44,346 bases of DNA from a virus. A program made the translations under genes and the position numbers. The stretch lies in the UHGV virus genome UHGV-0027446; one strand, 5' to 3'. How positions within the stretch are numbered: the stretch's first letter is position 1; the number at the start of each line of letters is the position of its first letter. Below, in pieces: positions 7,721 through 40,231 of the stretch. The notes beneath the pieces were generated by a model. It made no database searches and had not been told where the DNA came from. It worked only from the letters and a program-made list of their open reading frames with translations.

Positions 7721-7848
7721 TCCAGTACCCACAAATAAATTGCTACTAGCATACCCAATACGGCGACCATCATGCCGTATTGACCCTCGTGACAGTAGAC
7801 ACCGGCGGCGAAGCCCGCCAGTACCGCGATAATCAGTTTACTTAGCAT
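7717..7848 (-). CDS. small hydrophobic membrane peptide (43 aa)
   Basis: Hand-translated MLSKLIIAVLAGFAAGVYCHEGQYGMMVAVLGMLVAIYLWVLE; start overlaps last codons of polymerase gene. Confidence 0.25.
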   Translation of the reverse strand: MLSKLIIAVLAGFAAGVYCHEGQYGMMVAVLGMLVAIYLWVLE

Positions 7849-10800
7849 AACGCTTCATCTCCGCGCCTTCCGCTACAAGAGGGAAGCCCTCTGCCCATTC
7901 CGGCAATTCGCACATCAACCGCCCAAGCTCTGCGACATTGTATTCTGGTAAATCTGGCGTCTCGCAGATAATCTCATCGTGAACATGAAGCACAATAGGA
8001 TAGCCGTTTGCCTCTACGTTCAGCAGTGCATTAGCCAGCAAATCACGGCACAGCGCCTGAGTGCAGTTTTCCACCAGTTTACCAGAGTAGGTGTACTGGA
8101 AACCCCACTGCCGTGTTAACTGGTTTTCACCCTGGTACTTGATGCGGACGTTAGTAGACACCTTCCCGTCTTCGTCTGTCTCTTTAGACACGCTTAACCC
8201 GACTCCGGGGTAAGACATAACGCGGCCCGACGGCAGCGTCATGCGCAACCACCAACCAGCGACTTTGTTGCCGTTGCTATCTGTCTCTACGTTGCGCGAA
8301 AATTTAACGCCGCGTGGCCCTGCAGTGAACTCTTTGCCAGGATTACGGATAGCCGCCATAGCCGCATCTTCAATATCCCGCCAGAACGCTACTGTTTCCG
8401 GGTGTGACTCACGCCACATGCGCTTGATAGCGTCGCAGGTACGCCACACTTTCTTATCAAGAATATACGATGGTCGGTCATCCTTTTCACCGGGCCGCGG
8501 AGGTCGCTTGGCTTCCTGAATACGCGCCCATTCATATCCGCGTGCAGTAGCGGCCCATATATGGTCGGGGAAAGTACCGTCCATTGTTTTAGCCATATCA
8601 ACAAGATTTAAGCCGAGGTTTTTAGCAAACTGAACGAAAGCGCCGACGCCGCCTGCGTAGCCGAGGCCCAATTCACAGTTATGCGCCACAAGAAAGCCAG
8701 AGTCTGACGCTATAAGAAAACGGTTACCGTCTTCCACATCAATCAGGTCGTAAACCGGCTCGCAGTAGGTTAATTTCCCGTTCAAGCTCAGCAATGCGGG
8801 CAACGGCTGCATCATATTTTCGTTGAAGCTCGGGTATTTGCCGCCTGTTACGGCAGTTTTCAGAACGGCTGACAAACCGAATGTTTCCAGGTTCGTAGTT
8901 ACCGTCTGTGTCGATTCTGTCCATTTCGAGGTTTGGGTCGTCCCAGCCTTCCAGAGTTTGAACATATCTAAGAAACGACCTTTTATCAGTCCTCCACTGG
9001 TTAAATACCGTGATGCCCCTGGCGCCATAGTTTTTATAGCCTTTGTCATTAGGTTTTGTTGTTCGCGATATCGCCGCGGACAGCCGGTTGAGCAATCGCG
9101 CTCTGTGACTGTCATCTGGCATCGCATCCTCGTAACAGAAATACTGTTTACGATATTTTTTTGTTGCTTCAAGTGCGCAGCGGTTACATTGAGTGGTTTT
9201 ACCTCTTCTAACATTGTCGTACCCGACGCGCCCCGGAATCTCTCCGCAATCACATTGAGCAAGTAGTTGTCTATGACCTTGTCGTTTTGGTAACTCGCGC
9301 AGGATAACCAGGCGTCCATACCTCTCTCCAGGGCGAGGCCCATCATATATTTGTTTGAAACGAGTTGCTTTGCCGCCTTCCAGGAATGCGTCAATATTTT
9401 GTGGTCTTCGGTCATTAGAACCCCGTCCACATTTATCACTGGTTTCCACCCCATAAGGTGCGCGCCTTTTGTATTCACCCATTTTTCACCGTTCCATACT
9501 TTATCTGTTGATGTAACCGCCATAATATCCTTAAATCCACCATCGGTCAAAACTTGGGTATGGCGGTGAAGACAGGCCTTGCCAATCTGGCGCAGGTCAC
9601 TACGGCTTTCGAGAATGTAATCGGGGTCCATTCCGAACATCTTACCCGCAGTTACACAGTAAATATCCAGTCCCGCACGGAAAGTATCGAGAGCGGTTTC
9701 TTCTCCCGCCAGCCATGCCAACCCGCGTCCTTCAACGTTAGAGTAATCGGCGACTACAAACTTATGTCCGGCTTCCGGTATGATGCAGCTACGCACCGTC
9801 GATGCCGTTAGTTTGGCCACATCAAAACGGCGATGCGCACGGCCTTTAAACAACAGGTCGATTCCGTAGGACAATGGGTGTGTTACTCGCCACCAGTCCT
9901 TCTCTGACATCCAGTCATAGCGTACTTTCTTCTTTTTATTCTTCGGGTCGTCGTGATAGTACCCGCGCGCCAGGTTCTGCGGCTGAAAGCCTTTGCCCGC
10001 AAATCGTAATGTACGCTTCGCTCCGCCATACTGGATGCAACCACGACGGCGGTCGTCCGACGAGCGGCCCAACAGCAGCGGGTTATATTTCGTTGACGCG
10101 GTAGACGCGGCTCCGAGGCGCATTTCGATAATCATGCGGGCGTCGTCCGGTAAATCATCATCCGCCAACAAGTCATTCAGCGTTGACTTCTGCGCGTTGT
10201 GGATGCGGTGCGCGGGTGCGAGTTCACGCAGAATCGGCAGAAAGTCTTTACCAGTAAGCGAGCCGCCGTATTTTCGTTGGGCTTCTTCCTGTAACTGCGC
10301 TTTGTGTTTCTCCACGGCTTCAATCGCGGCTTCTGCCAGCGCGACGTCTACCTTAAACCCTCGGTCATTGATTAACTGGTCCAGCTCAAGTACACGGTCC
10401 TCGAACTCTGAGTTACCCCACCGCGGCAGCTTATGGAAGACTTCACGCATCGCAGTGATGTCGCTCACGGCGTACTTGATGAACAGCGCCCACTCGTCCG
10501 GGTGTGTTTCGGCGGTGTAGCGGCGGATTTTGTAGTTCTTCGGCGTAGGTTTAGAAAAACGCTGAATCAGCGCCTTGCCGCGTTTGTCTTTTGCGTTGTC
10601 TGCGGACACGCCCAACACTTCGCACAAAGCATCAAGTGAACCCGGCAGCGCGTGACGAAACGCCCAAATCATCGTATCAATGGTGTTGTTTACCGGAATA
10701 TCAAAACCCCAGCAGTGTTTCATGATGAGCCTGTCGAACATTGAACCGTTGTGCCACACCATCTTGATACGGCTGTTCGGTTTAACCAGACGGCGTAGCG

Positions 10801-10987
10801 CGCGGTGCAAATCGCCAGGCATGTCGCTGCCGTCTGTGCAGTCCCATACCTGTACGGGCTCGTCGTCAAAAGCATAAGTACAGATGAGCACTTCGGTTGA
10901 CGGGTGTTCGGCGTAAGCGTAGGAACCGACTTTCTTTAAATCGACTCCGGAGAATGTTTCAAAGTCTAAGTAGAGTAATTCTGGCAT
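7838..10987 (-). CDS. family-A DNA polymerase with 3'-5' exonuclease domain, interrupted by an intein
   Basis: Exo I motif YLDFETFS; motif A VVADYSNVEGR; motif B split by a 299-codon insertion; likely start at ATG (MPELLYLDFE), track ORF extends to TTG at 11017. Confidence 0.85.
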   Translation of the reverse strand: MPELLYLDFETFSGVDLKKVGSYAYAEHPSTEVLICTYAFDDEPVQVWDCTDGSDMPGDLHRALRRLVKPNSRIKMVWHNGSMFDRLIMKHCWGFDIPVNNTIDTMIWAFRHALPGSLDALCEVLGVSADNAKDKRGKALIQRFSKPTPKNYKIRRYTAETHPDEWALFIKYAVSDITAMREVFHKLPRWGNSEFEDRVLELDQLINDRGFKVDVALAEAAIEAVEKHKAQLQEEAQRKYGGSLTGKDFLPILRELAPAHRIHNAQKSTLNDLLADDDLPDDARMIIEMRLGAASTASTKYNPLLLGRSSDDRRRGCIQYGGAKRTLRFAGKGFQPQNLARGYYHDDPKNKKKKVRYDWMSEKDWWRVTHPLSYGIDLLFKGRAHRRFDVAKLTASTVRSCIIPEAGHKFVVADYSNVEGRGLAWLAGEETALDTFRAGLDIYCVTAGKMFGMDPDYILESRSDLRQIGKACLHRHTQVLTDGGFKDIMAVTSTDKVWNGEKWVNTKGAHLMGWKPVINVDGVLMTEDHKILTHSWKAAKQLVSNKYMMGLALERGMDAWLSCASYQNDKVIDNYLLNVIAERFRGASGTTMLEEVKPLNVTAAHLKQQKNIVNSISVTRMRCQMTVTERDCSTGCPRRYREQQNLMTKAIKTMAPGASRYLTSGGLIKGRFLDMFKLWKAGTTQTSKWTESTQTVTTNLETFGLSAVLKTAVTGGKYPSFNENMMQPLPALLSLNGKLTYCEPVYDLIDVEDGNRFLIASDSGFLVAHNCELGLGYAGGVGAFVQFAKNLGLNLVDMAKTMDGTFPDHIWAATARGYEWARIQEAKRPPRPGEKDDRPSYILDKKVWRTCDAIKRMWRESHPETVAFWRDIEDAAMAAIRNPGKEFTAGPRGVKFSRNVETDSNGNKVAGWWLRMTLPSGRVMSYPGVGLSVSKETDEDGKVSTNVRIKYQGENQLTRQWGFQYTYSGKLVENCTQALCRDLLANALLNVEANGYPIVLHVHDEIICETPDLPEYNVAELGRLMCELPEWAEGFPLVAEGAEMKRYAK
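8678..9574 (-). mobile_element. intein inserted in polymerase motif B
   Basis: Starts CLHRHTQVLTDGG (block A), has LMTEDHKILT (block B), ends YDLIDVEDGNRFLIASDSGFLVAHN with Cys at +1; excision restores RQIGKA-CELGLGYAGG. Confidence 0.7.
8739..9482 (-). CDS. HNH homing endonuclease, encoded in an alternative frame within the intein
   Basis: 247-codon ORF, same strand as polymerase but a different frame; YGRLVIL, QCDCGEIPGRVGYDNVRRGKTTQCNRC, KGYKNYGARGITVFNQW, LEMDRIDTDGNYEPGNIRFVSRSENCRNRR. Confidence 0.55.
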   Translation of the reverse strand: MGEYKRRAPYGVETSDKCGRGSNDRRPQNIDAFLEGGKATRFKQIYDGPRPGERYGRLVILRELPKRQGHRQLLAQCDCGEIPGRVGYDNVRRGKTTQCNRCALEATKKYRKQYFCYEDAMPDDSHRARLLNRLSAAISRTTKPNDKGYKNYGARGITVFNQWRTDKRSFLRYVQTLEGWDDPNLEMDRIDTDGNYEPGNIRFVSRSENCRNRRQIPELQRKYDAAVARIAELEREINLLRAGLRPD

Positions 10988-11007
10988 GGTATTTCGACCC
11001 TTAGTAA

Positions 11008-11027
11008 AAAGGCCCAATGAAGGGCCT
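11008..11027 (-). terminator. intercistronic hairpin / attenuator between SSB-like gene and polymerase gene
   Basis: AAGGCCC-loop-GGGCCTT followed on the minus-strand transcript by UUUUUACU; lies in the 30-nt gap just upstream of the polymerase RBS. Confidence 0.45.
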
Positions 11028-18215: not shown

Positions 18216-18280
18216 TTTCGCTCGCTATCCCCTTAAACAAAAGAATCACAACGGCAACGTAACCATTTTCGATGAATCTC

Positions 18281-18309
18281 TTGCACACCCCAACATAATA
18301 GGCTACTAT
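18281..18309 (+). promoter_or_regulatory. sigma70-type promoter, family B (TTGCAC-N17-TACTAT)
   Basis: TTGCAC accccaacataataggc TACTAT; near-identical copies at 31233 and 40095 (minus) and 19646 (plus). Confidence 0.5.
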
Positions 18310-18343
18310 TCACTTATCGAAACGAGACAGAGGAGTGAGGGCT

Positions 18344-27869: not shown

Positions 27870-29285
27870 TCACTTATTCCACACCAATTTCTCTTGTCCG
27901 CTATCCCATATGCGGGATACACCTTCCTCGGCGTACCATTCCGACTGAGTGAGACCCTCTGGCGCTTTGTTCCATTTTTGCCGTGATTCTGTTTTAGTCG
28001 CATTGTTTACGACGATACGGAAGCCGCATCTCACAGAAGCCTTTTTAAACCCCGCTGATAAGTATGCTTCTCCGGTAAATAAATCCCGGTCAGTGTAGGT
28101 AAAACCGTCGGTGATGCTATAACGGCGTACTGCGTAAGTCCATAGCTTTGACAGCCCTCCGACCACCGAACATGACGTAGCGTACCGCACAAGTTCCCAT
28201 TCGCCTTTTCTACACGTCAGCGTCATTACCGCGACAATCTTCTCTTCATACACAAGGCTGATATACTTCGTCGAGTTACGGAATCCTTGTATGTGGTTCT
28301 CCTCCAGAAAATATTCTGCGCGCAGTTTGTTAATCTCTTTTACATGGCATTTGCGGGCGAAAACGCGCAAAGAAGAGACGCCAACGGAATGGCTGATTAT
28401 TTTCTTTATTATTTCTTTTTTATGCAGCCATAGCTCGTCCCTTATTGACAGGAGTCGGAACCCTCTTGCCTCAACGGCAACTCTTTTCTCCATGTGATAC
28501 TTTCTCCCCTTCCCGGCAGCTTCGCTGTGCCAGTACAGGCCGTTTATTTCTATAGCCAGATTATGTTGTGGTATTAAAATATCTATCTCTCTTGGGTGGA
28601 TAAGACTTCTATCATTCCGACGATATTCCACCCCCATGCTGTCGAGAAATTCACAGACTTCATCCTCCACTTTACTACGCCCAAACGACGCACACCGCGG
28701 GCACCCTCTACCCTGAAAGATGTTACCAAGCGTAGCGGCCCATTCATGGCCTTTTTGACACCTCAGTGCCGACGGCATACGGCAGATATCCCCTGAATAA
28801 GACACCAGTTCAAAACCAGTGCCGCGTAACCTTTCCTCTATTTCGCCGATCTCAAGCCTTTTTCTGTTAGTGCTGCAATTCGGGCAATGACTTTTACCCC
28901 TTAAAACGTCGCTGCCGGTAGCGGACCAGACGAACCCGCATTTACATCTGAACGTTGATTTCCCACTGACAGCACCCGCGTAGCGAACACATTCAACCCC
29001 ATTAGGCCACTCTGCTACTTTCGCCCGTTTTTCCTCCGCATAGCATTGCGGGCAACCATGACCGTTCAGGACGGTATTAGCCTTTGTATCCCACACATGC
29101 CCCCTACGGCAGCGGAATTTAGACTTAAGTTTAGAGTGACCCGCATACTCAATTACGACTATCCCCCGTGATTCTAGTCTCAGGTTTATATCTTCTTCGG
29201 TTAAACGTCTGGACCCCATTAAAATATCCTCCACTTCTTCTTCTAGTATAAAGATTGCGCATATACATGTATCACAGCAAGACAT
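27870..29285 (-). CDS. multi-domain nuclease-like protein: three zinc-ribbon repeats + Vsr/PD-(D/E)XK-like core + C-terminal domain (homing-endonuclease-like)
   Basis: Three repeats of F(R/K)C..GH.W......(L/F).G.GCP.C; REIDILIPQHNLAIEINGLYWHS...ARGFRLLSIRD; alternative start at internal ATG 29219 after GGAGGA. Confidence 0.55.
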   Translation of the reverse strand: MSCCDTCICAIFILEEEVEDILMGSRRLTEEDINLRLESRGIVVIEYAGHSKLKSKFRCRRGHVWDTKANTVLNGHGCPQCYAEEKRAKVAEWPNGVECVRYAGAVSGKSTFRCKCGFVWSATGSDVLRGKSHCPNCSTNRKRLEIGEIEERLRGTGFELVSYSGDICRMPSALRCQKGHEWAATLGNIFQGRGCPRCASFGRSKVEDEVCEFLDSMGVEYRRNDRSLIHPREIDILIPQHNLAIEINGLYWHSEAAGKGRKYHMEKRVAVEARGFRLLSIRDELWLHKKEIIKKIISHSVGVSSLRVFARKCHVKEINKLRAEYFLEENHIQGFRNSTKYISLVYEEKIVAVMTLTCRKGEWELVRYATSCSVVGGLSKLWTYAVRRYSITDGFTYTDRDLFTGEAYLSAGFKKASVRCGFRIVVNNATKTESRQKWNKAPEGLTQSEWYAEEGVSRIWDSGQEKLVWNK

Positions 29286-38450: not shown

Positions 38451-38476
38451 TAAGGCCCCGACAGGGGCCTTTTTCT
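38451..38476. terminator. bidirectional terminator (TAAGGCCCC-GACA-GGGGCCTT + T-run)
   Basis: Between major tail gene and convergent minus-strand cassette. Confidence 0.6.
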
Positions 38477-38706
38477 CACTCATCTATATTACTCCTGTAT
38501 TCCCGTAACTTCTCCAGACTTTCAATTGCCTCCGCTAAGTCTGTTACAGTGTCCTTGTGACCACGCAAGCCCATGCACAATAGCTTCTTTAACGCATGCT
38601 GTAGCGCCGGGTCGCGGATATCGAAGGCCCGTAGCACATCGTAAACGTCTACGGTCATAGTGGTGCCGTGAGTATTTGTCATTGTGCGGTTGTATTTTGA
38701 AGTCAT
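38476..38706 (-). CDS. hypothetical protein (cassette gene 3)
   Basis: VYDVLRAF...ALQHALKKLLCMGLRGHKD motif; ATGA coupled to phosphoesterase gene. Confidence 0.45.
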   Translation of the reverse strand: MTSKYNRTMTNTHGTTMTVDVYDVLRAFDIRDPALQHALKKLLCMGLRGHKDTVTDLAEAIESLEKLREYRSNIDE

Positions 38707-39833
38707 CCCAGCATCTCCGGTGAAATAGTTAAACGTGCGACCTCACCATATTCGGCGCTATAAGTAATTACATTTGCACTACGGCCTGACATCCACCCAC
38801 CGCGTGAGGCGTAGGCGTCTTTAGCCGCTAAGGTGCGGTGTTGCTCAACAATCATGTTACGGCTTTCTACAATCTTTTGGTGGTGCAGGTGGCCTACGTG
38901 GGCGTAGCTGTAAACGCTCCCGCCGAACGCTTTGCGGAACTTGGCAATCATAACTGGCTCTATAGCGTCGAATCGTGCTTTATGTCCGTGTGTAAAGAAT
39001 AGCGTTGTTTTGCCGTGTTGCACCATCTTGTAAACATCCGGCGACGTATCGACGAACACACGCGGCTCGTTGTCGTACAGCGTACTGAACATCTCAGCCA
39101 ACCAAATCATCCCCGATTCGTCGTGATTCCCTTGCACGATAAGCAAGCGAACATTTTTATGTTTAACGAGGGCCATATCGACAACACGGCGGACCATGCG
39201 AATCATGTAGCGGACCAGTTTCTGATAGCGCGTGTCAGCGTCAAGAACGTGGCCACTCGCTGGCGTAACGGCATCCAGACTATCGAAGTGCGCAAGGTCG
39301 CCCAGCAGATTAATAACTCCTGTTCCGGCATCCGGGGCTTTCTGGAATGCCGCGTCGAACCAGCGAGAGAACAGGTCTTCCGCAATCTTCATGTCCCAGT
39401 CGTCGCCGCTCTCGTCGGCCCATGCCAGCATACCGAGATGGAAATCGGATACAGTGTAAAGATTGAGTAGCTTGTCATCACGTTTGGCGCGTGCCGCTTT
39501 AACAGGCGCAACGGGGGTAATCTCCGACTTCATGCCTTCGATTACGGCTTTCATCAACTCTACCTGACGTTCGACATCGGTATCAGTCTTAACCCATTGC
39601 AGTTTAGTGTTGCCGAACTCGTCAACAAGTGACGACGTGCCTTTAATCTTGTAGCCGTCTGGCACGAGGTGGCTAACGTCACGCCCGTGGCCTACACCTT
39701 TCTTAGCCAGCTTCGCTTTACGGATACGAATAACGCGGTCCGAGATGCCGTATTTACGGGCGATGTCTACGTTCTTCATCCCGGCGTTCAATTCTTCCTG
39801 TAACTGTTCGTCGGTTATTTTCTTATGGGCCAT
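38703..39833 (-). CDS. HTH-fused calcineurin-like metallophosphoesterase (SbcD/Mre11-like)
   Basis: N-terminal NVDIARKYGISDRVIRIRKAKL HTH; motifs VSDFHLG, GDLAHFD, QGNHDE, HGH, GHLHH. Confidence 0.65.
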   Translation of the reverse strand: MAHKKITDEQLQEELNAGMKNVDIARKYGISDRVIRIRKAKLAKKGVGHGRDVSHLVPDGYKIKGTSSLVDEFGNTKLQWVKTDTDVERQVELMKAVIEGMKSEITPVAPVKAARAKRDDKLLNLYTVSDFHLGMLAWADESGDDWDMKIAEDLFSRWFDAAFQKAPDAGTGVINLLGDLAHFDSLDAVTPASGHVLDADTRYQKLVRYMIRMVRRVVDMALVKHKNVRLLIVQGNHDESGMIWLAEMFSTLYDNEPRVFVDTSPDVYKMVQHGKTTLFFTHGHKARFDAIEPVMIAKFRKAFGGSVYSYAHVGHLHHQKIVESRNMIVEQHRTLAAKDAYASRGGWMSGRSANVITYSAEYGEVARLTISPEMLG

Positions 39834-39872
39834 GCTTTACTTCCTCGTGTTTAGGATTTGTCTTATAGTAGC

Positions 39873-40064
39873 CTACTTCTCTTTCACGTTCGAGTTGCAA
39901 GCCCATATTAAAATAAATAACCACGGCAGCAGAACCCAACCAAGAAACAGGTTAGCCATGAATATAGCTAACTTCGCTTTATGGTTACGGAAGTACGCAA
40001 CCAGGAAAGGCGCGAAATAAGCGAGCAGTGCAAACAGAATTAAGGAAACTGGTAAACTGGACAT
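39873..40064 (-). CDS. superinfection-immunity (Imm)-like small membrane protein
   Basis: Two TM segments, LLAYFAPFLVAYFRNHKAKLAIFMANLFLGWVLLPWLFILIWA; internal ATG after AAGGGG. Confidence 0.5.
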   Translation of the reverse strand: MSSLPVSLILFALLAYFAPFLVAYFRNHKAKLAIFMANLFLGWVLLPWLFILIWACNSNVKEK

Positions 40065-40094
40065 TTTAAACCCCTTCATTGTTGGTGTAAGTGA

Positions 40095-40123
40095 ATAGTA
40101 CCCTATTATATTGGGGTACGCAA
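40095..40123 (-). promoter_or_regulatory. sigma70-type promoter, family B (TTGCGT-N17-TACTAT)
   Basis: Minus-strand TTGCGT accccaatataataggg TACTAT driving the cassette. Confidence 0.5.
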
Positions 40124-40231
40124 GTAATGTGATAGAATAATTTTGCGCCTAGTGTCGCACACGAAAAGCGGGTGGTTCCCGTCTGGCGCATTTATCGTTA
40201 ACCTGTAACCTCTTAACCAAAGGATTAAAGA

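What the first reader, a model, noticed from the sequence alone, without database searches (positions are those of the whole stretch)
38476..40123. Three-gene opposite-strand cassette in the tail module: Imm-like membrane protein, HTH-fused SbcD/Mre11-like phosphoesterase, small protein
Between the major tail gene and the tail chaperone genes, three minus-strand genes form their own unit with a family-B promoter (40095..40123) and a bidirectional terminator (38451..38476). Gene 1 is a two-TM peptide resembling T4 Imm-type superinfection-immunity proteins. Gene 2 fuses an N-terminal helix-turn-helix to a complete calcineurin-like metallophosphoesterase motif set (DxH, GDxxD, GNHD, GH, GHxH) most like SbcD/Mre11, with no SbcC/Rad50 partner nearby. 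Gene 3 is a 76-residue protein with a conserved-looking motif. This looks like an accessory cassette (superinfection exclusion, anti-defence or DNA processing) rather than a virion component.
Basis: partly seen in the sequence, partly recalled or inferred. Interest (0 to 1): 0.72.

Follow-up and report, generated by a model that had tools for sequence, protein, structure and literature searches.

The report
Accessory gene cassette inside phage tail genes
Three backward-facing genes between the tail genes of this K1G-like coliphage form a real, swappable accessory unit (a T4 Imm-type membrane protein, a DNA-binding-domain-fused metallophosphoesterase, and a small unknown protein) that many sequenced relatives already carry and whose enzyme has no tested function.

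Summary
The window is a near-complete Kagunavirus genome. Three minus-strand ORFs (39873..40079, 38703..39833, 38476..38706) lie between the major tail gene and the tail-chaperone gene. A conserved promoter-like element and a strong bidirectional terminator bound them.

- **Gene 1** is a true T4 Imm homologue (Pfam above threshold; BLASTP against T4 Imm E 1e-10).
- **Gene 2** has a complete, family-wide invariant metallophosphoesterase (MPE) motif set behind a three-helix LuxR/sigma-r4-like N-terminus. It is not specifically SbcD/Mre11-like: fold and profile searches score Rv0805, Mre11, PolD-DP1, YfcE and GpdQ about equally. It has no capping domain, and the genome has no Rad50/SbcC.
- **Gene 3** is a widespread small phage domain with no known fold.

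Relatives show three modular slots: A, a small envelope protein; B, the HTH-MPE; C, variable cargo. Two subfamily genomes lack all three genes. In Cornellvirus the enzyme sits in another backward slot. So the accessory-cassette reading holds.

My best guess is that gene 2 is a partner-independent DNA nuclease working like T5 A1. This is inference only. The cassette is ordinary and already annotated in relatives. The open point is the function of this very large HTH-MPE family.

The parts
40088..40133 (-). Promoter-like region of the cassette. It has a -35-like ATCACA (40133..40128), a 17-nt spacer and a perfect -10 TATAAT (40110..40105). The 37-nt conserved element at 40088..40124 contains the palindrome GTACCC-N10-GGGTAC across the -10.
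   Evidence: Consensus scan. The element is repeated at 18280..18316, with 0 copies expected by chance. It is conserved in relatives whatever gene follows. No transcription start site has been mapped.
39873..40079 (-). Gene 1: a T4 Imm-family superinfection-immunity protein with two transmembrane helices. The probable true start is 40064 (63 aa).
   Evidence: Pfam PF14373 scores 47.8 bits against a cutoff of 27.9, and phrog_1039 gives E 1.6e-22. BLASTP against T4 Imm gives E 1e-10, 28% identity over 54 aa. Two hydrophobic peaks (about residues 8-30 and 37-62) flank the basic loop RNHKAK.
38703..39833 (-). Gene 2: a 376-aa HTH-fused metallophosphoesterase. It has a three-helix N-terminal domain (aa 8-44), a beta-hairpin plus helix linker domain (aa 61-102) and an MPE core (aa 119-376). 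The motifs are D130-x-H132, G178-D179-x2-H182, G235-N236-H237-D238, H280-G-H282 and G314-H315-x-H317.
   Evidence: phrog_704 gives E 5.6e-166. The motif residues are invariant across 46 diverse homologues. The AlphaFold2 model has pLDDT 91.8. Foldseek finds a generic MPE fold. The family has 4618 representative clusters and 2041 phage records.
38476..38706 (-). Gene 3: a 76-aa protein of the uncharacterised phage domain family phrog_2452. Its start overlaps the gene 2 stop (ATGA).
   Evidence: phrog_2452 gives E 2.1e-36. It occurs in 775 phage records. The conserved core is KY..R...DVYDVL.AF..PA.QHALKK.LC.GLRGHKD..DL.EA. The AF2 model has pLDDT 88 and no PDB fold match; the best E is 0.67.
38452..38471 (.). 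Bidirectional intrinsic terminator shared by the major tail gene (+) and the cassette (-).
   Evidence: An 8-bp stem with 6 G-C pairs and U-runs on both strands. Energy is -16.3 / -20.5 kcal/mol, z -5.0 / -4.4.
18280..18316 (+). Second copy of the 37-nt promoter-like element. It heads the rightward operon of small genes, which is presumed to be early. It is related to the cassette but not part of it.
   Evidence: exact match to the degenerate 37-mer; context; the equivalent small-gene operon in Bas74.

Best explanation
**What it is.** The region is a self-contained, opposite-strand accessory (moron-type) transcription unit. It sits in a conserved recombination slot between the major tail gene and the tail-chaperone genes of Guernseyvirinae phages. 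It has its own promoter-like element, of the same type as the one heading the small-gene operon, and it ends at a terminator shared with the tail gene.

**Three modular positions.**
- **Slot A** always holds a small envelope protein. Here it is a T4 Imm homologue. By analogy with T4 Imm, it sits in the inner membrane and stops the DNA of superinfecting phages from entering.
- **Slot B** holds the HTH-metallophosphoesterase. Its catalytic residues are intact, so it should be an active dinuclear-metal phosphodiesterase. The N-terminal LuxR/sigma-region-4-like helices would tether it to DNA. I think it most likely acts as a DNA nuclease that needs no Rad50/SbcC partner. Its target would be host or foreign DNA, or DNA ends, during the non-structural phase of infection. 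This would be comparable to the T5 pre-early metallophosphatase A1, which drives host DNA degradation.
- **Slot C** is exchangeable cargo, translationally coupled to the enzyme gene. Here it is a 76-aa domain of unknown function linked to DNA-metabolism contexts. Sister phages carry instead a Pnkp-type HAD phosphatase plus a dNMP-kinase-like P-loop protein.

**Shown:** the anatomy, the homologies, the intact active site, the modularity and the dispensability.
**Inferred:** timing of expression, the DNA substrate, the nuclease activity and the biological role.
For: **Unit boundaries and coupling:**

**Same slot, variable content.** In 42 IMG/VR loci:
- Slot A is Imm in 27 and something else in 15. 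The alternatives are a 108-aa signal-peptide protein (phrog_14165) or a single-pass membrane protein.
- Slot C holds gene 3 in 23 loci, HAD_PNKP plus kinase in 16, and neither in 3. The two cargo types never occur together.

**Dispensability and mobility:**
- phiEap-2 and VLCpiS11a lack the enzyme, gene 3 and Imm entirely (tblastn E > 1).
- One contig has the enzyme elsewhere in the genome (L041 and L111).
- Shemara has it as a lone opposite-strand gene in the head module.
- Drexlerviridae carry it in the replication/lysis region.
- A Vibrio phage carries it next to an OB-fold protein.

**Imm homology:**

**Enzyme:**
- The catalytic residues are invariant and the model is confident.
- MPE nucleases (Mre11, PolD DP1) are among the top fold hits.
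- The GD-x2-H form of motif II also occurs in Mre11 (from my own knowledge of Pyrococcus and human Mre11, GDLFH).
- The window is a near-complete genome and has no Rad50/SbcC-like ORF. Bas74 has none either.

**T5 precedent:**
- A1 is a predicted metallophosphatase that is necessary and sufficient for host DNA degradation. It is encoded with an HTH protein, a two-TM protein and a HAD dNMP phosphatase.
- The best local profile match of the family to any reference I tested is to A1 around GNHD..S.WL.
- The K1G HAD protein resembles T5 Dmp around DLDGT (E 1e-4).
Against: - No biochemical or genetic data exist for any member of this HTH-MPE family. Literature searches found only annotations.
- The fold search cannot separate nucleases from small-molecule phosphodiesterases. 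Rv0805 is the top hit, and GpdQ, YfcE and LpxH are close behind.
- Similarity to T5 A1 covers only 21 columns at hhalign probability 16%. The HTH shows no similarity to T5 A2.
- The HTH assignment is sub-threshold: GerE E 0.032 in Pfam and 0.016 against PDB sequences.
- The promoter's -35 is poor and no transcription start site is mapped.
- The only transcriptome of a Kagunavirus places the Imm gene in a class peaking late, together with methylase and polymerase genes. That separates it from the tail genes but does not show early expression.
- Imm and the enzyme are adjacent only in Guernseyvirinae, so a joint function is not implied.
Confidence: 0.55

Rival explanations
1. Gene 2 is a genuine SbcD/Mre11-type recombination or repair nuclease. 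It would process phage replication or recombination intermediates (hairpins, blocked ends), alone or together with the host SbcC. The cassette would then be a DNA-processing unit.
For: - Mre11 structures are among the top Foldseek hits (E 2.5e-8).
- PHROG labels the family 'DNA repair exonuclease'.
- The GD-x2-H variant of motif II is present.
- In other phages the gene lies in replication or recombination regions.
Against: - There is no specific affinity. Rv0805 and PolD DP1 score the same as Mre11.
- The profile gives E 0.11 against Mre11 sequences.
- hhalign probability against E. coli SbcD is 3.3%, equal to CpdA.
- Only 59 residues follow the last motif, so there is no capping domain.
- The genome has no Rad50/SbcC.
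- Some subfamily members lack the gene altogether.
Confidence: 0.18
2. Gene 2 hydrolyses small phosphodiesters or RNA ends rather than DNA. One version is an anti-defence enzyme that destroys cyclic-nucleotide or other nucleotide signals. The other is an end-healing enzyme (2',3'-cyclic phosphodiesterase) working with the Pnkp-type phosphatase and kinase found in slot C of sister phages.
For: - The top PDB fold hit is the cNMP phosphodiesterase Rv0805. GpdQ, YfcE and LpxH are also close.
- K1G-type cassettes pair the enzyme with HAD_PNKP (72 bits) and a P-loop kinase.
- In 16 of 42 loci the enzyme gene is directly followed by that pair.
Against: - A conserved N-terminal HTH-like domain is hard to explain for a small-molecule enzyme.
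- There are no PADLOC hits and no known anti-defence family hit.
- The kinase matches dNMP kinases (phrog_139), not polynucleotide kinases.
- No RNA ligase appears in the Bas74 annotation.
- The window's own cassette lacks the HAD/kinase pair.
Confidence: 0.15
3. Gene 2 is mainly a transcription factor: a sigma-region-4/LuxR-like HTH that binds promoters or RNA polymerase. The phosphoesterase domain would serve as a sensor or accessory module.
For: - There are weak N-terminal hits to GerE/LuxR and to a 'late transcriptional activator' PHROG.
- A palindrome overlaps the cassette's own -10.
- T5 A1 is reported to interact with RNA polymerase.
Against: - The catalytic residues are invariant across the whole family, which argues for selection on catalysis.
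- The palindrome is not conserved in Jerseyvirus cassettes that carry the enzyme.
- All HTH hits are below family thresholds.
Confidence: 0.08
4. The products are virion or tail-assembly components, placed in the tail module because they take part in tail morphogenesis.
For: Only the location between tail genes.
Against: - The genes are on the opposite strand with their own promoter-like element and terminator.
- Two Guernseyvirinae genomes lack all three, and the tail genes flank only one small unrelated envelope-protein ORF; twelve more IMG/VR loci also have no enzyme in the slot.
- The enzyme lies in non-structural regions in Drexlerviridae and Vibrio phages.
- The membrane and HTH/enzyme domain content does not suit a virion role.
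Confidence: 0.02

Closest known systems
Phage T4 Imm (Pfam PF14373, Imm_superinfect)
   Same: Gene 1 matches the family above Pfam's threshold and aligns to T4 Imm itself (E 1e-10) over both hydrophobic helices and the basic loop. It is also a small two-TM protein.
   Different: Identity is only 28%. The protein is shorter (63-68 aa against 83 aa). It sits in a siphovirus tail-module slot rather than the T4 early region. Close relatives replace it with unrelated envelope proteins. Its exclusion activity has not been tested.
Annotated cassette of Kagunavirus/Jerseyvirus genomes (K1G ORF18-21; Bas74_0021-0023)
   Same: The position, order and orientation are the same. Bas74 has the identical three-gene version, with 97-98% protein identity.
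   Different: K1G carries a HAD_PNKP phosphatase plus a dNMP-kinase-like gene in place of gene 3. Other relatives add Rha-family or small ORFs.
Phage T5 pre-early protein A1 (predicted metallophosphatase driving host DNA degradation) and its operon
   Same: It is a phage metallophosphoesterase with no Rad50 partner. It is encoded alongside an HTH protein (A2), a small two-TM protein and a HAD dNMP phosphatase. T5 A1 shows the MPE motifs by eye and gives the best local profile match to the family, at GNHD..S.WL.
   Different: Homology is not established (21 columns, probability 16%). A1 is 556 aa with a different N-terminal half. The HTH is a separate protein in T5 and fused here. A1 is essential in T5, whereas the enzyme here is missing from some subfamily members.
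Mre11/SbcD nucleases
   Same: The MPE fold and motif set are shared, including the GD-x2-H form of motif II. These structures are among the top fold hits.
   Different: There is no preferential similarity, no capping domain and no Rad50/SbcC partner. An HTH and a beta-hairpin domain precede the core.
Class III cyclic-nucleotide phosphodiesterases (Rv0805, CpdA) and GpdQ/YfcE-type small MPEs
   Same: The size of the catalytic core is similar. Rv0805 is the single best PDB hit.
   Different: Similarity is equally weak (CpdA hhalign probability 3.2%). Those enzymes lack a DNA-binding N-terminus.

Membership tests
T4 Imm / PF14373 superinfection immunity | Profile match above the curated threshold | tested here: met
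   PF14373 scores 47.8 bits against a cutoff of 27.9. phrog_1039 gives E 1.6e-22.
T4 Imm / PF14373 superinfection immunity | Direct similarity to T4 Imm itself | tested here: met
   BLASTP E 1e-10, 28% identity over 54 aa.
T4 Imm / PF14373 superinfection immunity | Small protein with two membrane-spanning helices separated by a basic loop | tested here: met
   Hydropathy peaks at about residues 8-30 and 37-62, with the loop RNHKAK between them.
T4 Imm / PF14373 superinfection immunity | Blocks DNA entry of superinfecting phage | not testable with these tools
   This needs expression of gene 1 followed by phage challenge.
Calcineurin-like metallophosphoesterase superfamily | Motifs DxH, GD, GNH(D/E), H and GHxH in order, on an alpha/beta sandwich | tested here: met
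   D130, H132, D179, N236, H237, H282 and H317 are invariant in 46 homologues. The AF2 model has pLDDT 91.8. There are 130 PDB MPE matches at E <= 1e-3. Pfam Metallophos and Metallophos_2 hits fall just below their cutoffs.
Mre11/SbcD nuclease | Closer to Mre11/SbcD than to other metallophosphoesterase families | tested here: not met
   Foldseek gives Rv0805 2.1e-8, Mre11 2.5e-8 and PolD DP1 3.0e-8. The profile against PDB sequences gives Mre11 E 0.11. hhalign probability is 3.3% for SbcD and 3.2% for CpdA.
Mre11/SbcD nuclease | Capping domain after the phosphoesterase core | tested here: not met
   The protein ends 59 residues after GHxH. The model shows only the closing strands of the core.
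Mre11/SbcD nuclease | Adjacent or co-encoded Rad50/SbcC ATPase | tested here: not met
   None of the 11 ORFs of 380 aa or more in the 44-kb window is Rad50/SbcC-like: four were scanned against Pfam with no SMC/Rad50 hit, and the others correspond to genes annotated in Bas74. The full Bas74 annotation has none either.
Mre11/SbcD nuclease | Mn-dependent exo/endonuclease activity on DNA | not testable with these tools
   This needs a biochemical assay.
LuxR/GerE (sigma-70 region 4-like) HTH | Significant profile match and a three-helix DNA-binding fold | tested here: inconclusive
   GerE gives E 0.032, 14.3 bits against a cutoff of 23.5. The profile against the GerE structure sequence gives E 0.016. 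The model has three helices at aa 8-44. No Foldseek hit specific to this domain was seen.
T5 A1-type host-DNA-degrading metallophosphatase | Sequence homology to A1 | tested here: inconclusive
   hhalign aligns 21 columns at probability 16%, E 0.0016. hmmsearch matches only motif III.
T5 A1-type host-DNA-degrading metallophosphatase | Causes host chromosome degradation when expressed | not testable with these tools
   This needs in vivo expression or a deletion mutant.
Known anti-phage or anti-defence protein families (PADLOC) | Profile match | tested here: not met
   No hits for any of the three proteins at E <= 1.
phrog_2452 small domain (gene 3) | Profile match and conserved core motif | tested here: met
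   E 2.1e-36. Residues K4, Y5, D20, Y22, Q36, H37, K40, K41, G46, G49, K51 and D56 are invariant. The family has no described function.

The most novel reading that the evidence does not exclude
The HTH-metallophosphoesterase family is the fused functional equivalent of the T5 A1/A2 pair. This family spans thousands of clusters across T1-like, Jersey-like, Dhillonvirus, Webervirus, Vibrio and Campylobacter phages. On this reading it is a partner-independent, DNA-tethered nuclease that dismantles host or rival DNA, and may also dampen host transcription. The exchangeable slot-C cargo (dNMP-kinase-like protein, Pnkp/Dmp-like HAD phosphatase, or the gene 3 domain) would process the released nucleotides. 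That could also blunt defences that sense degradation products such as m6dAMP.
Probability: 0.2. Interest if true: 0.6.

Novelty: new member of a known kind. Interest (0 to 1): 0.3.

Why it matters
The cassette itself is ordinary. Opposite-strand accessory units with a superinfection-immunity gene are a familiar feature of phage genomes. This one is already present, and loosely annotated, in hundreds of sequenced Guernseyvirinae.

Two points are useful.

First, the comparison defines a clean three-slot recombination site. Such a site can be mined for envelope-acting exclusion proteins and other cargo.

Second, the enzyme belongs to one of the larger uncharacterised phage enzyme families: 2041 phage records and about 4600 clusters at 50% identity. 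Annotation pipelines currently label it 'DNA repair exonuclease' or 'DNA polymerase II small subunit' without support. Showing what it does would correct those labels. It could also explain how T1-like and Jersey-like phages deal with host DNA.

Bas74 belongs to the public BASEL collection, so the question can be tested directly.

Tried and rejected
- phmmer of gene 2 and gene 3 against PDB sequences found nothing useful.
- NCBIfam and PADLOC gave no meaningful hits.
- The search for related loci with the diverse alignment failed because it had no conserved stretch. I used the single protein instead.
- I first thought gene 3 was the C-terminal remnant of the K1G 'ATP-binding protein'. I rejected this: the K1G protein is an unrelated dNMP-kinase-like P-loop protein. 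The PHROG C-terminal matches reflect a mobile domain fused to other proteins.
- I suspected from memory that gene 3 was DUF3310/SaV-like. Pfam does not support this, even at E <= 1 across 22 homologues.
- A structured RNA in the conserved intergenic region is not supported. Its folding energy is no better than shuffles (z -0.9 / -1.2).
- The gene 2 HTH shows no similarity to T5 A2. The T5 two-TM protein gives only a 21-aa match to gene 1.
- No conserved neighbour or partner gene for the enzyme emerged across distant loci.
- Literature searches found no functional data on the enzyme in Kagunavirus or Drexlerviridae and no virion proteomics covering these genes. A phage Tn-seq preprint did not cover relevant phages.
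Full report
**What the window is.** Megablast of 36400..42000 hits 428 phage records. The best are Escherichia phages GZMU_E2010, SonjaBuckley_Bas74, JSSK01 and the K1G/K1ind group, at about 90% nucleotide identity. The window is therefore a Kagunavirus (Guernseyvirinae). At 44.3 kb it is essentially a whole genome.

**Checking the observation.**
- The three minus-strand ORFs are present exactly as stated.
- Their neighbours are homologues of the annotated major tail protein and tail assembly chaperone of K1G and Bas74.
- The genes are packed like an operon. The gene 2 stop overlaps the gene 3 start (ATGA). Gene 2 has a GAGGAAG ribosome-binding site. Gene 3's stop lies 5 nt before the terminator.
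- The terminator is an 8-bp G+C stem at 38452..38471 with U-tracts on both strands. It is far more stable than shuffled sequence in both orientations.
- Upstream lies a perfect TATAAT with a weak -35.
- A 37-nt element covering the -10 and the first transcribed bases occurs a second time at 18280..18316 (+). There it heads the operon of small genes. No copies are expected by chance.
- The whole 150-bp intergenic region is conserved at the nucleotide level in relatives, whichever gene follows it.
- Small corrections: motif II reads GDLAHFD rather than GDxxD. Gene 1 probably starts at 40064.

**Gene 1.**
- It scores above Pfam's threshold for Imm_superinfect (47.8 bits against 27.9) and matches phrog_1039.
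- It aligns directly to T4 Imm (E 1e-10) across both hydrophobic segments and the basic loop.
- Hydropathy shows two membrane helices.
- Membership of the Imm family is well supported. Exclusion activity is inferred from T4.

**Gene 2.**
- The protein matches phrog_704 end to end (E 5.6e-166).
- An exhaustive search finds 4618 clusters at 50% identity with E <= 1e-3. Most are 370-400 aa, so the architecture is conserved.
- tblastn finds it in 2041 phage records. These include Guernseyvirinae, Drexlerviridae, Dhillonvirus-like, Klebsiella, Vibrio and Campylobacter phages.
- In 46 diverse homologues, D130, H132, G178, D179, N236, H237, H282, G314 and H317 are invariant. H182, D184, D238 and H315 are nearly so. 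The dinuclear-metal site is therefore under selection.
- The AlphaFold2 model (pLDDT 91.8) has a three-helix N-terminal domain, a beta-hairpin plus helix, and an MPE core that ends the protein.
- Foldseek against the PDB finds the generic fold. Rv0805, Mre11 and PolD DP1 are tied at about 2-3e-8, followed by YfcE, GpdQ, Vps29 and LpxH.
- The family profile against PDB sequences gives only GerE-type HTH (E 0.016) and Mre11 (E 0.11).
- hhalign probability is 3.3% for E. coli SbcD, 3.2% for CpdA and 16% for T5 A1.
- Among predicted viral structures it belongs to a broad phage group that is often auto-labelled 'DNA polymerase II small subunit'.
- There is no Rad50/SbcC-like gene in the window or in Bas74.
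- No conserved neighbour appears across distant loci.
- Conclusion: the 'complete metallophosphoesterase motif set behind an HTH' is right. 'Most like SbcD/Mre11' is not.

**Gene 3.**
- It matches phrog_2452 and only the C-terminal ~70 positions of several longer PHROG profiles.
- It occurs in 775 phage records.
- It stands alone among small early-region genes in Drexlerviridae.
- It forms the C-terminal domain of 253-255-aa proteins. One of these lies in a 7-deazaguanine (queuosine-type) gene cluster.
- It also forms the N-terminal domain of a BRCT-containing protein.
- The core motif is strongly conserved.
- The model (pLDDT 88; a beta-hairpin plus three helices) has no PDB match.
- Pfam finds nothing.
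- Its function is unknown. The fusion and neighbourhood contexts point loosely to DNA metabolism.

**Synteny: accessory or not.** I fetched 73 IMG/VR loci by the enzyme and 30 by the tail chaperone and mapped reference proteins onto them.

In 42 loci the enzyme lies between the chaperone and the major tail gene, always on the opposite strand.
- The promoter-proximal slot holds an Imm homologue in 27 loci (two alleles about 65% identical). In the other 15 it holds something unrelated: a 108-aa signal-peptide protein (phrog_14165) or a single-pass membrane protein.
- The distal slot holds gene 3 in 23 loci, sometimes with extra small ORFs or a Rha-family gene.
- In 16 loci the distal slot holds a Pnkp-type HAD phosphatase plus a dNMP-kinase-like protein.
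- In 3 loci it holds nothing. The two cargo types never occur together.

Twelve chaperone-anchored loci have the tail genes almost adjacent, with only a small envelope-protein ORF between them.
- The complete genomes of phiEap-2 and VLCpiS11a contain no trace of the enzyme, gene 3 or Imm.
- One such contig carries the enzyme elsewhere in the genome (L041 and L111).
- Cornellvirus Shemara has it as a lone opposite-strand gene with its own terminator in the head module.
- In Drexlerviridae it lies between the Dam methylase and the lysis genes.
- In a Vibrio phage it lies next to an OB-fold protein.

It also shows that the enzyme gene is an independently mobile unit.

**How it most likely works.**
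- Slot A proteins are all envelope proteins. With the Imm homology, this fits a role at the cell envelope against incoming phage DNA.
- For the enzyme, three features favour a DNA nuclease that needs no partner: an intact catalytic centre, a conserved DNA-binding-type N-terminus and the lack of any ATPase partner.
- A precedent now exists. T5 A1 is a predicted metallophosphatase that is necessary and sufficient for host chromosome degradation. It is encoded in an operon with the DNA-binding protein A2, a small two-TM protein and the HAD dNMP phosphatase Dmp.
- The K1G-type cassette (two-TM Imm, HTH-MPE, HAD phosphatase, dNMP-kinase-like) parallels that arrangement. The K1G HAD protein resembles Dmp around its first motif (E 1e-4).
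- This is an argument about what the cassette works like, not about membership. Homology to A1 is not established.
- The fold data fit a small-molecule phosphodiesterase equally well.
- The one available Kagunavirus transcriptome is coarse. It places the Imm gene with methylase and polymerase genes in a class that peaks late. That separates it from the tail genes but does not show early expression.

**Novelty and verdict.** The cassette is real, autonomous and accessory. It is also common and already annotated in relatives (K1G ORF18-21; Bas74_0021-0023). Nothing about it would surprise a phage genomicist. What is worthwhile is a cleaner description of the three-slot structure, the correction of the SbcD/Mre11 label, and the point that a very large HTH-MPE family still has no tested function and now has a plausible analogue in T5 A1. 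I score interest at 0.3.

Noticed in passing
window 27870..29285 (-): A 471-aa opposite-strand ORF lies between the portal and head-morphogenesis genes. It carries a DUF4379 treble-clef zinc finger (E 3e-13) and a Vsr/REase_MTES_1575-like endonuclease domain (E 5e-5). Bas74 has no gene at this place. It is probably a mobile or homing-type nuclease insertion.
   Followed up: partly
window 7838..11017 (-): The DNA polymerase ORF is 1059 aa, and its DNA_pol_A match covers only aa 405-481. In Bas74 the polymerase is 726 aa, with a separate endonuclease VII gene next to it. This suggests an insertion in, or a fusion to, the polymerase gene, or an over-extended TTG start.
   Followed up: no
window 40080..40231: The intergenic region between the cassette and the tail chaperone gene is conserved at the nucleotide level across Guernseyvirinae, whichever gene follows it. 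It includes GCGCC..CGGG-AACCA-CCCG-CTTTT..GGCGC. Its RNA folding energy is no better than shuffles. The major tail gene ends in a terminator, so this region probably carries the promoter or control elements for the downstream tail operon. No sigma-70-type promoter was found on the + strand.
   Followed up: partly
window 18280..18316 (+) and 40088..40124 (-): There are two copies of a 37-nt promoter-like element in which CTTGC lies only 7 nt upstream of the -10. That spacing is too short for a canonical -35. The positions where a -35 would be expected differ between the two copies. The cassette copy also carries a GTACCC-N10-GGGTAC palindrome across the -10, which looks like an operator.
   Followed up: partly
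L002 3571..4610 (K1G) and 16 IMG/VR loci: Alternative slot-C cargo is a Pnkp-type HAD phosphatase (PF25109, 72 bits) plus a dNMP-kinase-like P-loop protein (phrog_139). In 42 loci it never occurs together with gene 3. The MPE + HAD pairing resembles both the T5 A1/Dmp pair and, in mirror image, the bacterial Metis defence system (calcineurin-like protein plus HAD) described in a 2025 preprint.
   Followed up: partly
L123 5670..6803 (Salmonella phage Shemara, Cornellvirus): Here the HTH-MPE homologue is a lone opposite-strand gene with its own annotated terminator. It lies between a head gene and the spanin genes. The tail slot holds only a 120-aa opposite-strand ORF. The window and Bas74 have a small minus-strand ORF at the equivalent head-module position. 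This suggests several fixed opposite-strand slots in the structural module.
   Followed up: partly
L114 1913..2674 (phage JenK1 gp35); L115 2414..3622 (Aeromonas phage PhAER-6): The gene 3 domain is fused to the C-terminus of an uncharacterised 253-aa protein inside a 7-deazaguanine DNA-modification gene cluster. It is also fused to the N-terminus of a protein that ends in a BRCT domain and is annotated as DNA ligase.
   Followed up: partly
window 40066..40191 (-): A 41-aa ORF here is annotated as a gene in Bas74 (Bas74_0024). It overlaps the promoter and the conserved non-coding region. Its apparent conservation is at the nucleotide level, so it is probably not a gene.
   Followed up: partly
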